Positions 3,743-62,283 of a stretch of DNA of 64,000 nt are shown in pieces (the stretch's first letter is position 1; the number at the start of each line of letters is the position of its first letter). This DNA comes from Eledone cirrhosa (lineage: Eukaryota): NCBI GenBank assembly GCA_964016885.1, contig OZ024740.1, forward strand, positions 335,296,001 to 335,360,000. The letters run 5' to 3'. The notes beneath the pieces are model-generated. The model saw nothing but the letters and a program-made list of their open reading frames with translations. It ran no database searches and was not told the origin of the DNA. A program made the position numbers and the translations under genes.

Positions 3743-5475
3743 TATATATATATATATATATATATATATATATATATATACATATGTATCTACATATGTA
3801 TGTATATATATATATATATATATATATATATATATATATATATATATACACACACATATATATACACACACACACACATATATATATATATATATATATA
3901 TATATATATATATATATTTATAATGTATGTATCTTAGATAAAACACTACCATTTTCAAATACATATATAAATATCGAATAATATATTCCTAGCTTCAAAC
4001 ACAATTTAAAAAATTGAAAGAACACGAGTCATACTTATAACGCCTTTGATCACATGAGTGCTTGATCAGAACTGAAGTAAATTGAACTACTTTATGAAGC
4101 AATTTATAAAAACATTTCATTGAATCTTAAAATATTTCTAAAAATATAACATATTAATTAACACTAATGAGGTGTAAGATTATCTGAATTTAGCGCTCAT
4201 CGGTCTACTTGACCCTATATTAAGGCTGCAGATATCATCACTTGGTACATCATTAAGTGGAGCCAACACGTCTACTGCGTTTTGTTTACATATGTTAATA
4301 ATATAAATTGTTTGTGTCTGTTGACCTGAAGGTCAGTGAGGAGAAAATGGTTCGATAATAATCTCAGAAATAATCAGGTGTAAAGAATTTTTGCAGATAA
4401 CCTCAACAATTGCGGTAGAAAAAAATGTACGTGTGTGTGAATATCTGTGTATGAGTGTGCGTAGTTATGCATTTATATCAGTCTGTTTATATGTATAAAA
4501 TAGGGCTCCAACCACCCAATGTCAGCAGCTGGGACACTACAAGCCTCTCCAGCTAACCAAATTGCTTAGAATGGAAGAAATAGAGTTTGTATGTATCGTT
4601 TAATTGTTCTTCGCATCCCGTTTTCACCCCGACTATTTACATCACCAACTTTACACCAACTGTCTTTACTACACCACCGATTTCAAACAACTCCCTACAT
4701 TTGAAACTCAACCGTTTAAAAGAGTCTACCTCCAGTAAAACACAGAAAAAACCTGTGCACCATGATTCAAATCGGTCAAGTGATCCATTTGCTTCGTTTG
4801 TAGAACTGGGGAACAGTGATCGAATCCGAGTGATAGCATTTTGGGCTGATGATTGATTTTACAAATTTATTCACAATATATATATTTATATACATCTATT
4901 AAAAAGAACAATTTTATTATATATATATATATATATATATATATAGGTAAGTTATTCCGGGTTGAATCAGAGGTAACCACAGTAAGTAAGGTACTCAATA
5001 CATAGCAGACTATAAAAGTTTTAATATAGAAGAGATTCTACACGACTAGAACTGTTTCATTCGTGAGAAATCATCAGGAATCTGGCTGTCCAAGTAAATA
5101 TGGTGCTATTTATATCTCTTCTGGTGGTAGGAGAGGGATGGGTGTAGGTCATTGGTTGAAAGAAAAGGGAATTCATTAAAAGCTAATACTTTAAAGCTAT
5201 AATTTATATTTAGAGTGACACAGGCAGAAAGAATTCTATAAACAAGTTCAAATTATAGGTGCCTCTCCTTATTGTCAAGTTTCTCTTAAGCTAATTTCAG
5301 GTGTCACAAGCACATTCACACATACATACATATATATATATATATATATATATATATATATATATATATATATATATATGTATCTATATATGTATATGTG
5401 TATATATATATATATATATATATATATATATATATATATATATATATATATATATATATATATATATATATATAT

Positions 5476-5820
5476 GTAGATAAATCTACCAAGAGTTTAC
5501 GGTAGTGTCCAATCCGTATGAAGAACTCAATGTATTCCGGATATCATGGAAAGAAGAGATGTAATGAAAATCCAATTTCGGTGAAAGATAAACGGTATAC
5601 AGAGTCAAGATAAAATATTAAACAAATAATGAACAAACAATTCCTTATATTAAACAAAAAAAGTTCACTATTTAACGATCGTTTCTAGGGCATATATGTG
5701 TTATAATTGGTATGCATATTTAACAGATCTATGTACAAAATTATACAAAATTATACAAATTATCAAGATTAAATATACATACCTAACTCATATATACGCC
5801 GTCTTCAGACGGCGTATATA
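5476..5820 (-). mobile_element. Family C hammerhead element (truncated, ending in a short hairpin)
   Basis: Homologous to 33165-33621; - strand reads CTGAAGA...~125 nt...GAAA-CGATCG-TT; terminal hairpin TATATACGCCGTC-TTCA-GACGGCGTATATA at ~5791-5820; (TA)n on both sides. Confidence 0.75.
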
Positions 5821-6301
5821 TATATATATATATATGTGTGTGTGTGTGTGTGTGTGTGTGTGTGTGTGTGTGTGTGTGTGTGTGTGTGTGTGTGCTTGTA
5901 GACACCTGAAATATAGCTTACGAGAAGCTTGGCAATAAGGAGAGGCACCTATAATTTGTACTTGTTTATAGAATTCTTTCTGCCTTTGTCAGAATTAGCT
6001 TTAAATAATTTCCCTTTCTTTAAACCCATCAACCATGACTGACCTCCAACCATGTTATAGGCACCTGAATTATAGGCTTGTTAGCTTAAGAGAAACTTAA
6101 AAATAAGGAGTGGCATTCCAATTTGAACTTATTTATAGAATTATTTCTGCCTTTGTCACTCTAAATATAAATTATAGCTTTAAAGAATTAGCTTTTAATG
6201 AATTCCCTTTTCTTTCAACCAATGACCTCCACCCATCTCACTCACCACCCTCTCCTACCACCAGAAAATATATAAATACCACCATATTTACTTGGACAGT
6301 C

Positions 6302-6352
6302 AGATTCCTGATGAGTTCTCACGAATGAAACAGTTCTAGTCCTGTAGAATCT
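6302..6352 (+). ncRNA. Type I hammerhead ribozyme (canonical core)
   Basis: AGATTC-CTGATGA-GTTC(TCAC)GAAT-GAAA-CAG(TTCTAGTC)CTG-TA-GAATCT: helices I, II and III all pair, GUA cleavage triplet; less perfect copy on the - strand at 5033-5083. Confidence 0.85.
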
Positions 6353-59562: not shown

Positions 59563-60674
59563 ATAGGAACCAGTAAGACCCCGACAGCTGAGCTCAAGCC
59601 GTTTCGACGGCTAATTCTGGACTAAATGAAAATTTATCCTGGTATTTAAATAGCCGATCTTCTCAAGGGGTAATTCCATATATGGTCAAAGTGATTGTCA
59701 AAAATCAGTAGTAATTCTGTGGTTGCAAATTAGTAGGGGAGATGGTGGCTAAACCTGCCAGCAGGAGAAAGAGGGGAGGGGGTGGAGTAGACCCAATCAA
59801 GCGTTGGTAGTGCCAGCTACAGCTGGGCATGAGGTCAAAGAAGATACAGGGGAGGGGGAGGGGGAGGAAGTCGGAACGGTAGGTAGAACAATGGGGGGTA
59901 GAAATACGAAAGAAAAAATACTGAGAGTGAAGAAAAGCAAATAAGTGTAAAGAAAAAAGTAAGGTAAATTAAATTCTACGACCTAGGTGTCAGGCTATTG
60001 TTAGGCGAGAATAAAATAAAGAAAGAAAGGAAGAAGTAAATAAATAAATAAATAAATAAATAAATAAGGAAATAAGTAAGAGAACTAGGTGGGACGGATT
60101 AAGGCAAGGACCCTTTTAAGAGGTATAAGTACGTAAATGATACGGTGACGGGTCAACAAAAGGGGCCAAAATACTAAAGAGACTACCACGAAATAAACAA
60201 TAAAGGTTTCCATCCCGGGCCAGCAACGACCCAGTGCAGCAAAGTGAACTTGTACGAGATAATAATTCTGAGTCCCGAGAAAAAAAAAAAAAAAAAAAAA
60301 ATATATATATATATACTAATGCTAACTCTAAAAGATCTAAAACAAGCTACATGAGAGTTCGTACGAAATAAAGGTAGAATACGGAGAAATAAATTCAGAA
60401 TCCACCCCGCCCAAAAGAAAAGCGAAGCAATTTGCAACCACAGAATTACTACTGATTTTTGACAATCACTTTGACCATATATGGAATTACCCCTTGAGAA
60501 GATCGGCTATTTAAATACCAGGATAAATTTTCATTTAGTCCAGAATTAGCCGTCGAAACGGCTTGAGCTCAGCTGTCGGGGTCTTACTGGTTCCTATTAC
60601 CCACTCTACTACCTCAAGTATTGAGTACTTTGGTGCGTTATGGTCCACCTGGTTCCTTACCACATTTCCTTCGT
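59563..60674 (+). mobile_element. Family A1 fold-back hammerhead element
   Basis: 169-bp inverted arms 59563-59731 / 60429-60597 (no mismatch seen), purine-rich non-coding spacer, tail 60598-60674, TA flanks. Confidence 0.9.
60489..60582 (+). ncRNA. Type I hammerhead, U3:A8 core variant
   Basis: ACCCC-TTGAGAA-GATCGGCTA...TAGCCGTC-GAAA-CGGC(TTGAGCTCA)GCTG-TC-GGGGT; predicted GUC cleavage after 60577; identical copy on the - strand at 59578-59671. Confidence 0.75.
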
Positions 60675-60700
60675 TATATATATTATATATATATATATAT

Positions 60701-62283
60701 AACGAAGGAGATGTGGTAAGGACCCAGATGGACCATAACGCACGAGAGTACTCAATACTTAGGGTAGTTGAGTGGGTAATAGGAAAATGTATGACCCCGA
60801 TGGCAGAGCTCAAGCCATTTCGACGGCTATATCTGGACTAAATTAGAATTTTTAGCTTGGTAAATAAATAGCCGAACTTATCAAGGGGTACTTCCTTATA
60901 TGGGAAGATTGTAGTTGTCAAGAGGATTGGTCAAAACTTGTTGTAAACACAAGTAAGTCTGTCATGGCATTTGATGGGACGTAGGGGTGGCTGAACTTGC
61001 CTGTAGAACAATGAGGGACTGAGTGGAGCCGGTCAGAAATGATACAAAATTTCATGGGTCTAACACATCTGCTATAAATAATTAGTAAAGCGTATTCGGC
61101 CAATTCTATCTTAAAATTACATGGGTGGGGGTACCGAGGCTACAGAGGCCCGATGGGCTGCATCGGGGTAGGCGGAAGTGGAAACACAGACGAGAAAGAA
61201 ATCGGGGTGGAATGAAGTAATAGGATGAGACAGGGGAAGAAGACAACATAGAGGTAAAGAAAAGAGGTACATCTACCTATGTAAGCTGGGGTTTCCCCTA
61301 ACTTATTCGGCAAGTGGGGGGCATTAGCCCTTGTCTACCCACCCGGGTCGTTATGGGGTTTGAGAGCGAGGTAAGTCCTACGCAATCTGTGTTTGCATGC
61401 GGTTACCAGTTTGTCTTCCTTGTTTAGGAGTTGATCCTTCGAAAACAGCATTTGTAATGTTTCCACCGTGTAAGTAATTTTAAGATAGAATTGGCCGAAT
61501 ACGTTTTACTAACTATTTATAGCAGATGTGTTAGACCCATGTAATTTTGTATCTCATTTTTGTTACTACTCCAATTCTACAATTTCTAAATTTCTTATTT
61601 AGTATTTTCTTTTCTCAACTTATTAACCTCTAATTGTAAGTTAGCATTGGCGGAATACGCTTTACTAACTATTTACAGCAGCTGTGTTAAACACCTGAAA
61701 AGTTTGCATTATATTTTTTCACTACCCACTTCTACAATTTTAGTATTTTCCATTCTCGACTTATTAACCTTTTCTATAGCCTCGGCCATACAAGCAACAC
61801 CTACTAATTATAGCAGCTGTTTCTAGACTCTACTCTTTTAGTTTTTTTATTCATTTCTCACTATCTATTTTATATATTTTTATATATTTCTTTCTATTAT
61901 GTTTTATTGTCTCCTACTCTCATCTGATTTACCTATTCTATACCCTCCCTCCTCCACTTTTCTCCAGAACAATTCTTCGACTTTTCATACACTATCCTTA
62001 GAATCTGCTGTATAGATATCACTTTCAACGTTTGACCGGCTCCACTCACTCCCTCATTGTTCTACAGGCAAGTTCAGCCACCCCTACCCCCACCAAATGC
62101 CATGATAGACTTACTTGTGTTTACAACACTTTTGACAAATCCTCTTGACAAGTACAATCTTCCCATATCAGGAAGTACCCCTTGATAAGTTCGGCTATTT
62201 ATTTACCAGGCTAAAAATTCTAATTTAGTCCAGAAATAGCCGTCGAAACGGCTTGAGCTCTGCCGTCGGGGTCATACTTTTTC
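60701..62283 (-). mobile_element. Family A2 fold-back hammerhead element
   Basis: Tail 60701-60782; arms 60783-61035 / 62033-62283; second inverted pair 61041-61120 / 61474-61553; internal ~150-bp tandem units at ~61488-61860. Confidence 0.85.
62177..62272 (+). ncRNA. Type I hammerhead, U3:A8 core variant
   Basis: ACCCC-TTGATAA-GTTCGGCTATTT...AAATAGCCGTC-GAAA-CGGC(TTGAGCTCT)GCCG-TC-GGGGT; predicted GUC cleavage after 62267; - strand copy at 60794-60889. Confidence 0.8.

What the first reader, a model, noticed from the sequence alone, without database searches (positions are those of the whole stretch)
4991..60757. Shared YTGAGT(A/G/T)C motif at a fixed ~40-48 nt from the 3' end in unrelated families
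Seen, reading the tail-bearing copy in hammerhead sense, with distance to the microsatellite junction: TTGAGTAC at 60621 (~46 nt), 60748 (47) and 4991 (45); CTGAGTAC at 50418 (~46); TTGAGTTC at 5523 (47), 33211 (46) and 58909 (~44); CTGAGTGC at 55063 (40); degenerate versions at 3500 (~41), 55200 (48) and 11404 (~39, downstream of the PLE ORF remnant). The 34281 copy is 54 nt out because of an insertion, and family D has the motif ~75 nt out. The surrounding tails do not align. Inference: this is a cis-acting signal recognised by the mobilising PLE RT/endonuclease, or a 3'-processing signal.
Basis: partly seen in the sequence, partly recalled or inferred. Interest (0 to 1): 0.8.

Follow-up and report, generated by a model that had tools for sequence, protein, structure and literature searches.

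The report
Twin RNA helices set retroelement ends
The shared motif is one strand of a small bulged stem that occurs twice in tandem at the front of Penelope-like jumping genes; inserted copies end a few bases before one stem or the other, so the stems likely tell the element's reverse transcriptase where to start copying.

Summary
The motif and its position are real: 35 of 79 sense hits lie 35-49 nt from a (TA)n junction in 1.2 Mb sampled without regard to the motif, against 0 of 56 antisense. It is not a free-standing 8-mer, and the families are related. They are ends of Hydra-clade Penelope-like elements (PLEs). The motif is the 3' strand of a helix, RCUC-[stem]-loop-[stem']-2-nt bulge-GAGY-NC, whose pairs covary across families while the helix spans 17-81 nt. 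ORF-bearing copies carry two such helices in the 5' UTR, between hammerhead and ATG. Tail-less ends map about 4-10 nt before helix 1 (142 of 151 within -12..+2). Tailed ends map 5-9 nt before helix 2, confirmed as a prediction in two families. The '40-48 nt' is thus the spacer between helices. 67 of 70 two-ended insertions pair one end of each type. The helix is clear in 3 of 6 published Hydra consensus sequences, from coral and sea cucumber. Likely role: RT-binding anchors that set the two internal start sites, which would explain the PLE 'tail'. Binding and initiation are untested.

The parts
60603..60626 (+). Helix 1, family A: 5' arm 60603-60606, 4-bp inner stem, 6-nt loop, 2-nt bulge, GAGT; motif 60621-60628; tailed end at 60674
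59563..60674 (+). Family A insertion: inverted tail-less arm 59563-59731 copies 60429-60597 and stops 6-9 nt before helix 1; tailed end on the right
60489..60582 (+). Family A hammerhead with the U3-A8 core variant (core 60494-60500, GAAA 60555-60558, inferred cleavage after 60577), about 25 nt upstream of helix 1; read by eye
   Evidence: variant described in PMC4209133 section 5
60750..60773 (-). Helix 1, second family A copy (first inner pair mismatched); motif 60748-60755; tailed end at 60702
   Evidence: arm position by arithmetic
60702..62283 (-). Second family A insertion: tailed end left, tail-less inverted end at 62283
50409..50423 (+). Helix 1, family A, inner stem shortened by a deletion; motif 50418-50425; element 50277-50471, palindrome 50277-50400 stops 9 nt before the arm
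34283..34308 (-). Helix 1, family A, 5' arm mutated; motif 34281-34288; element 34228-34424, palindrome stops at 34316, 8 nt before the arm
   Evidence: arm position by arithmetic
55049..55068 (+). Helix 1, family D (1-nt bulge form); motif 55063-55070; element 54130-55110, inverted arms 54130-54496 / 54678-55044 stop 5-7 nt before the arm; hammerhead core at 54977
5525..5605 (-). Helix 1, family C, long-loop form (5' arm 5602-5605, 5-bp inner stem, 61-nt loop); motif 5523-5530; tailed end at about 5478
33213..33291 (-). Helix 1, family C, 5' arm mutated; motif 33211-33218; element 33167-33622, palindrome 33300-33622 stops 9 nt before the arm
4993..5011 (-). Helix 1, family E, 5' arm with one substitution; motif 4991-4998; element 4946-6367, arms 5018-5294 / 6081-6367 stop 7 nt before the arm; hammerhead cores at 5077 (-) and 6308 (+)
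3502..3518 (-).
3369..3394 (+).
55202..55221 (-).
58911..58930 (-). Helix 1 with a G-U pair in the outer stem and a 2-bp inner stem; motif 58909-58916
47285..47308 (-).
33982..34006 (+). Helix with G-U outer pair and 5-bp inner stem; motif 34001-34008, 77 nt from the junction
9837..10361 (+). Remnant of a Hydra-type PLE ORF (39% identity to L101 residues 536-718); hammerhead core at 11236; decayed motif at 11404 with no (TA)n junction nearby

Best explanation
The motif is the 3' strand of a conserved bulged helix that occurs twice in tandem in the 5' UTR of Hydra-clade Penelope-like retrotransposons, and each helix likely acts as an RNA binding site that positions the element's reverse transcriptase to start copying about 5-10 nt upstream of it. 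SHOWN by sequence: unit order is hammerhead, A/U-rich tract, helix 1, spacer of about 30-80 nt, helix 2, 30-65 nt, ATG; tail-less ends map just before helix 1 and tailed ends just before helix 2; two-ended insertions nearly always carry one of each. INFERRED: (1) the RT-endonuclease binds the helices in a more-than-unit-length or circular transcript; (2) a nicked (TA)n 3' end anneals to the UA/UAU just upstream of a bound helix and primes cDNA, so the anchoring helix is never copied; (3) priming at helix 2 copies spacer plus helix 1, which is the 'tail' that bears the motif, and priming at helix 1 gives the tail-less end; (4) when both target strands are primed, one at each helix (possibly by a dimer), the two cDNAs join to give the inverted one-long, one-short insertion. 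Confidence: helix real and conserved about 0.95; helices fix the ends about 0.8; RT anchor for initiation about 0.7; dimer spanning both helices about 0.4.
For: Helix: swapping 3' arms between clusters never reached the observed pairing (11 of 18 multi-copy clusters with 3 or more inner pairs, null mean 4.3, 0 of 2,000; 21 of 58 for all clusters, null 6.7); away from junctions 13 of 374. In 22 helices the outer pair is A-U 10 times, G-C 12, never mixed; inner pairs 1 and 2 hold in 21 of 22 with five standard pair types at position 2; 6 G-U against 1 A-C favours the sense strand. Ends: 142 of 151 short ends within -12..+2 of the 5' arm, 4 ends inside a helix, 146 tailed ends, for helix lengths 17-81 nt; pairs long+short 67, short+short 2, inside+long 1. 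In the window 7 of 7 elements with a mapped inverted arm stop 5-9 nt before helix 1. Predictions written down first: family A read-through copies show helix 2 six nt past the tailed end (360 matches; 95 of the 100 listed rows by my count) and then a Hydra ORF in 3.5-kb tandem units; family H1 tailed ends fall 8 nt before its helix 2. Of 14 loci picked by ORF codons only, 4 have a canonical helix 2, 4 a near-canonical one, 3 a short GC[A/G]C/GUGC form and 3 none; local tailed ends map 5-9 nt before it in L267, L269 and L271. Short ends work alone: H1 has 2,811 short ends against 89 forward-strand tailed ends. Other phyla: clear in 3 of 6 Hydra consensus sequences of PMC8557442 File S7, two in tandem before the ATG in the sea-cucumber element (by eye). 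In vitro precedent: the anole PLE protein starts RT at two internal sites, needs template downstream of them and is predicted to be dimeric (PMC11167929).
Against: No binding, structure probing or RNA data. Predicted pairing in context is weak in two of four UTRs folded (helix 1 pair probability 0.06-0.07 in family A and 0.02 in H1; 0.86 and 0.32 in the others), so the fold would need protein to hold it. 7 of 18 multi-copy clusters failed the 3-pair test: by my reading three are not tails, one has the 1-nt bulge form, two have only 2 contiguous pairs and one (f7) has its helix further upstream. The 22 helices were chosen after I had seen them and are related by descent, so the p-values overstate independent events. 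Pattern searches found no canonical helix 2 for families E and D; E has a reduced variant and D stays unresolved. Short-end mapping looked only 70 nt upstream; with 260 nt a few ends lay further out, including 10 at -45 to -56 in family f8. Ends lie in A/U-rich tracts, and a test against all TA sites in the UTRs was not run. 3 of 6 published Hydra sequences show only degenerate forms. In H1 most insertions use one site only, so two-helix engagement is not obligatory.
Confidence: 0.7

Rival explanations
1. Fold-back model: cDNA starts only at the tailed end, snaps back on itself, and the returning strand stops at the base of helix 1, so the short end is a stop and not a start.
For: Gives the same inverted product and explains the 67 of 70 asymmetry. 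Near-perfect central palindromes occur at 50277-50400, 34316-34424 and 33300-33622. Self-priming was proposed for PLE inversions in PMC3846280 (passages). A few tail-only insertions begin at the short site (6 of 154 within 10 nt of upstream (TA)n, some being native A/T tracts).
Against: In H1 short ends outnumber tailed ends about 15 to 1 (patterns differ in stringency). In the 13 ORF-bearing H1 loci examined a match to the pLTR stops at or just before the short site downstream of the ORF in all 13, and an inverted 5' copy was seen in only 2. G-U exceeds A-C, favouring structure in the sense RNA rather than the cDNA. It does not explain why tailed ends sit at the same offset from helix 2. Two RT starts were seen in vitro.
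Confidence: 0.1
2. The helices are translational elements (cap-independent initiation or an autoregulatory operator for the hammerhead-cleaved mRNA); ends fall beside them only because A/U-rich tracts there anneal to (TA)n.
For: Both helices lie in the 5' UTR, helix 2 about 30-65 nt before the ATG; junctions show TA/TAT microhomology.
Against: Ends are sharp to a few bases in each family and keep their offset from both helices despite different flanks and loop lengths; H1's tailed end is not in a long A/U tract. A translational role could coexist with the RT-anchor role.
Confidence: 0.1
3. The motif is a DNA site read by the GIY-YIG endonuclease (the GAG-NN-CTY near-palindrome), not an RNA structure.
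For: PMC11167929 reports that the Drosophila virilis Penelope endonuclease needed the tail for recognition of plasmid DNA (citing earlier work that I did not read). The bases after the helix are often NC-UY, making a short palindrome.
Against: Covariation with a partner arm up to about 75 nt away, with G-U pairs, is expected of single-stranded nucleic acid and not of a duplex site; insertions go into (TA)n, not next to the motif.
Confidence: 0.06
4. The motif is a 3'-processing signal or part of an unrecognised self-cleaving ribozyme that creates the RNA 3' end about 45 nt downstream.
For: Fixed offset within families; conserved unpaired bases (bulge U, 3' C).
Against: The sequence reads through to the ATG in full-length units; a separate hammerhead lies upstream; the 150 listed of 232 Rfam matches were nearly all miRNA-type hits on microsatellites and inverted repeats, all below gathering score, none a ribozyme; a second end class lies upstream of the motif.
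Confidence: 0.04

Closest known systems
Hydra-clade Penelope-like elements (Craig et al. 2021, PMC8557442; section 11, passages and File S7 read)
   Same: C-terminal endonuclease, RW[K/R] and DKT motifs, CxCX5C linker, CxxC and CxH motifs, canonical hammerhead, (TA)n targets, inverted pLTRs, optional tail at one end.
   Different: In the passages I read the paper describes no conserved helix in the tail or 5' UTR. Tails here run about 60-140 nt rather than the 30-40 bp given for PLEs in general.
Anole Poseidon element PAc: two internal RT start sites bounding the tail (Frangieh et al. 2024, PMC11167929; main text parts 1-2 of 4 read)
   Same: Internal initiation, tail as the stretch between two starts, template needed downstream of the starts, A/T-rich target, predicted dimer.
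   Different: Different clade; starts lie inside the ORF at an AC-rich stem-loop; the binding motif was not defined. I could not see its sequence file (.gbk unreadable, figure PDF without text), so whether PAc has an analogous helix is untested.
LINE/SINE conserved 3'-tail stem-loop, eel UnaL2 (PMC1636434; abstract only)
   Same: A small bulged RNA hairpin near the copying start, shared by related elements; in UnaL2 the bulge is required for retrotransposition.
   Different: UnaL2 has one hairpin inside the copied 3' tail. Here there are two helices in the 5' UTR, each downstream of its inferred start and so left out of the cDNA it anchors, in a telomerase-related RT clade.
Telomerase RNA template-flanking elements, HBV epsilon, MS2-type operators (recalled, no call)
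   Same: An RNA helix bound by the enzyme sets the register of reverse transcription, or represses translation.
   Different: No sequence or structural identity tested; analogy only.

Membership tests
Hydra-clade PLE (host elements) | RWK-type N-terminal motif and DKT in place of DKG | tested here: met
   RWR and DKT in L101/L102 and in the family A ORF; definition
Hydra-clade PLE (host elements) | C-terminal endonuclease with CxCX5C linker, CxxC and CxH motifs | tested here: met
   Read by eye in the L101 ORF and the family A C-terminus. Pfam found no family in the L101 ORF, so the GIY-YIG call rests on motifs
Hydra-clade PLE (host elements) | Hammerhead ribozyme in the pLTR | tested here: met
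   Cores in families D, E, H1, H4; U3-A8 variant in family A by eye; cleavage not tested
Hydra-clade PLE (host elements) | Insertion into (TA)n with inverted or partial-tandem pLTRs | tested here: met
Hydra-clade PLE (host elements) | Placement in the Hydra clade by RT phylogeny | not tested
   No tree was built
LINE-type 3'-tail recognition stem-loop | Conserved bulged stem-loop close to the RT start | tested here: met
LINE-type 3'-tail recognition stem-loop | Lies upstream of the start and is copied into every insertion | tested here: not met
   Tail-less ends lack both helices and tailed ends lack helix 2
LINE-type 3'-tail recognition stem-loop | Bound by the element's RT and required for mobility | not testable with these tools
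   Needs biochemistry
Known Rfam RNA family or small ribozyme | Match to a curated model | tested here: not met
   None of the 150 listed of 232 window matches reached a gathering score and none was a ribozyme
Protein-coding constraint (Glu-Tyr/Phe/Cys codons) | Motif inside the ORF, in frame | tested here: not met
   Lies about 110 nt before the ATG with stops between; about 140 nt before in family A
Pan-PLE element | Present in non-Hydra PLE tails | tested here: inconclusive
   One young GxKF-type (Neptune-like, my label) family has sharp ends but no such helix by eye; one helix-like hit lay 914 nt after another such ORF; six 8-mer searches of the PMC8557442 supplement gave 24 hits, none an evident helix by eye

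The most novel reading that the evidence does not exclude
Hydra-clade PLEs use a tandem pair of clade-wide bulged RNA helices as a built-in ruler: a dimeric telomerase-like RT binds both, primes each nicked target strand 5-10 nt upstream of one helix, and never copies the helix it stands on. This would explain the PLE tail, the one-tailed inverted insertion and the need for a more-than-unit or circular template, and give a portable handle of about 25 nt for choosing where a PLE RT starts on any RNA.
Probability: 0.45. Interest if true: 0.85.

Novelty: new variant of a known kind. Interest (0 to 1): 0.74.

Why it matters
How PLE reverse transcriptases, the closest retroelement relatives of telomerase, pick their template and start site is open. 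The one in vitro study showed two internal starts but did not define the RNA signal (PMC11167929). This gives a defined, covarying candidate conserved from coral and sea cucumber to this genome, with point mutations, compensatory rescues and spacer changes that test it directly. It would also explain the tail seen at one end of PLE insertions and give a structural tag for classifying a very large number of short, ORF-less fragments (51,061 forward-strand pattern matches in this genome). I did not find the helix described: paper searches, and term look-ups or readings. Subscription papers, Repbase/Dfam notes and figure images were not searchable.

Tried and rejected
Coding constraint: rejected, the motif is in the 5' UTR. 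Splice site, AP-1 site, SECIS and hammerhead core: considered from recalled consensus and dropped as not matching; not tested by a call. SINE B-box look-alikes (30365, 22148, 22363, 24946, 30858) are a separate repeat. Cluster f11 (L002/L046) has the 8-mer but no partner arm and mostly reads on into another repeat: a chance match. Rfam scan uninformative. The repeat finder direct families were swamped by microsatellites. MAFFT misaligned the 22 short helices because of loop length, so no RNAalifold, pair-count or covariance-model call was made; pairing was counted on motif-anchored positions in scripts. Searches for a canonical helix 2 in families E and D gave 3 and 1 unrelated matches. Family B ends at +18 to +32 vanished when matches had to cover the motif and are treated as artefacts. 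Sequencing runs: no RNA holder listed; no reads laid. Earlier findings of the scan: none. Pfam: nothing for the window remnant or the L101 ORF. A test of end positions against all TA dinucleotides in the UTRs was not run, which leaves the A/U-tract rival less tightly bounded. Supplements that may bear on claims but could not be read: PMC11167929 .gbk and figure PDFs; bioRxiv supplements are closed.

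
Full report
Setting. The window is G000:C1:335296001-335360000 of a 3.0-Gb genome rich in (TA)n.

1. The observation. The 8-mer is present at the listed coordinates, 40-53 nt from the microsatellite. The exception is 11404, which has no junction within about 600 nt. In 120 evenly spaced 10-kb stretches, 35 of 79 sense hits within 150 nt of a junction fall at 35-49 nt, against 0 of 56 antisense and 0 of 5 reversed. 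Genome-wide there are 51,061 forward matches against 2,497 for the comparable control. The positional peak is real but reflects high-copy families, so the tests below were run per family where possible.

2. What carries it. The window's ORF remnant has 33,219 candidate relatives in the genome, of which 150 were scored. Long-ORF copies show RWR, DKT, CxCX5C, CxxC and CxH, the features that define the Hydra clade in PMC8557442 section 11; no tree was built. In these elements the motif lies downstream of the hammerhead and about 110 nt before the ATG, and again near the 3' junction, so it is non-coding and belongs to the pLTR/5'-UTR overlap. 13 of 21 tail representatives have a Hydra-type ORF end within 2.2 kb upstream in at least one local copy; a Neptune-like ORF was linked once. 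Family A, the commonest in the window, has full-length tandem units of about 3.5 kb with a Hydra ORF. The short window elements are therefore most simply 5'-truncated insertions of diverged Hydra families (inference).

3. The motif is half of a helix. Upstream of the motif sits RCTC, followed by bases that pair with those before a 2-nt bulge: RCUC-[stem]-loop-[stem']-YN-GAGY-NC. Sites were chosen by motif and distance only (202 sites, 58 clusters). 11 of 18 multi-copy clusters have 3 or more inner pairs, against a mean of 4.3 when 3' arms are swapped between clusters (0 of 2,000 swaps reached 11). For all clusters the count is 21 of 58 against 6.7; for motif hits far from junctions it is 13 of 374. 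In 22 helices that I picked (13 helix 1, 9 helix 2) the outer pair is A-U in 10 and G-C in 12, never mixed. Inner pairs 1-3 hold in 21, 21 and 15 against null means of 15.7, 9.9 and 8.8. There are 6 G-U pairs and 1 A-C, and the first bulge base is U in 20 of 22. These rows are related and hand-picked, so they show the pattern and not a count of independent changes. Individual window copies have decayed: the 5' arm is mutated at 4991, 33211 and 34281. Folding predictions support the helices in two UTRs and not in two others.

4. Ends. Across 21 representatives there were 151 tail-less ends, of which 142 lie within -12..+2 of the 5' arm, 4 ends inside a helix, and 146 tailed ends mostly 28-64 nt past the motif, sharp within each family. 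Helix length ranged from 17 to 81 nt. Of 70 insertions with both ends mapped, 67 pair a tailed with a tail-less end. That call looked only 70 nt upstream, with 260 nt, found some further ends, notably 10 in family f8. In the window, 7 of 7 elements with a mapped inverted arm stop 5-9 nt before helix 1 (with arm positions).

5. A second helix explains the 45 nt. 5' UTRs of ORF-bearing copies hold a second helix of the same build about 30-65 nt before the ATG. I noted the prediction that tailed ends sit just before it and tested it. Family A read-through copies have a G-C-closed helix six nt past the tailed end: 360 matches, 95 of the 100 listed rows by my count (the pattern asked for the two outer arms but not for inner pairing or the exact offset). 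Family H1, for which no tailed end had been seen locally, has them 8 nt before its helix 2. Of 14 loci selected by ORF codons alone, 4 have a canonical helix 2, 4 a near-canonical one, 3 a shortened form and 3 none; tailed ends map 5-9 nt before it in L267, L269 and L271 (offsets by hand). Against this, canonical-pattern searches failed for families E and D. E has the shortened form; D and B remain unresolved. H1 uses the short site far more often (2,811 against 89 forward-strand) and mostly alone.

6. Other species. In File S7 of PMC8557442 (parts 52-53 read) the helix, with a G-C outer pair, is clear by eye in Hydra-2_Amil (coral), Hydra-2_Ajap and twice before the ATG in Hydra-1_Ajap (sea cucumber). 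The 3' end of the Hydra-1_Ajap consensus runs on into its own first bases two nt before helix 1, if the authors cut it at the unit boundary. Hydra-1_Amil, Hydra-1_Obim and Hydra-1_Crog show only degenerate forms. One young Neptune-like family in this genome has sharp ends but no such helix by eye.

7. Mechanism. Shown: anatomy, covariation, end positions, asymmetry. Inferred: the RT-endonuclease binds a helix in a multimeric or circular transcript; a nicked (TA)n end anneals to UA/UAU 5-10 nt upstream and primes cDNA; the anchoring helix is not copied. A start at helix 2 gives the tail (spacer plus helix 1); a start at helix 1 gives the tail-less end. Priming of both target strands, one per helix, and joining of the two cDNAs gives the inverted insertion. 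This agrees with the anole PLE in vitro: two internal starts, template required downstream of them, predicted dimer (PMC11167929). Rivals are fold-back termination (0.10), a translational element with incidental ends (0.10), a DNA site for the endonuclease (0.06), and a processing signal or ribozyme (0.04).

8. Relation to what is known. The host elements and the tail are known. The helix works like a LINE 3'-tail recognition hairpin such as UnaL2 (abstract) but fails membership on position, since it lies downstream of the inferred start, is paired in tandem and is not copied. I found no description of it in six paper searches or in what I read: PMC11167929 parts 1-2 of 4 and supplements 2-3; PMC8557442 passages, section 11 and supplement parts; PMC4209133 passages and section 5; PMC3846280 and PMC2377424 passages; preprint 10.64898/2026.07.22.740005 parts 1-2 of 5 and a term look-up.

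Verdict. Real, and more specific than first read: a conserved tandem-helix cis element of Hydra-clade PLEs that likely sets both RT start sites. New variant of a known kind; interest 0.74; function untested.

Noticed in passing
window 60489-60582 (+), family A: Hammerhead with the U3-A8 core covariant, a long stem II and a full stem III, missed by a CUGAnGA scan; the variant was reported in Schistosoma PLEs.
   Followed up: partly
L256 about 1400-1700: Three head-to-tail copies of the family E tail unit (short site to long site) before (TA)n: reiterated copying of the tail, or unequal exchange; single example.
   Followed up: no
L255, L258, L231, L116: Tail-only pieces that begin at or near the short site, sometimes stacked on another family's tail or joined to an inverted ORF end.
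   Followed up: partly
L267, L269, L049, L194 (family f7): Helix 1 is far upstream with a long loop, yet a second, unpaired GAGT-NC copy sits 44 nt before the tailed end; unexplained.
   Followed up: partly
L244 5' UTR (family A): The predicted fold pairs the 5' arm of helix 1 with the 3' arm of helix 2, an alternative conformation that could act as a switch.
   Followed up: no
L201-L230: Very young GxKF-type (Neptune-like) PLE family, 96-99% identical at protein level, many copies with 784-codon open frames, 4,496 candidates.
   Followed up: partly
G000:C1:91476593-91487271, C1:437200339-437210983 and others: Tandem arrays of about 3.5-kb family A Hydra units with near-identical sequence, suggesting recent activity.
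   Followed up: partly
window 22020-30883, 41653-41881, 45158-45373, 2927-3046: Many copies of a short repeat with a B-box-like sequence (SINE-like) that contains the 8-mer by coincidence.
   Followed up: no
window 17017-17819 (+): Fragment resembling a non-LTR retrotransposon RT C-terminus, label from recall.
   Followed up: no
window 5789-5814, 3458-3490, 28530-28590, 63245-63346: Small perfect or near-perfect palindromes next to or between (TA)n runs, possibly minimal PLE insertions.
   Followed up: no
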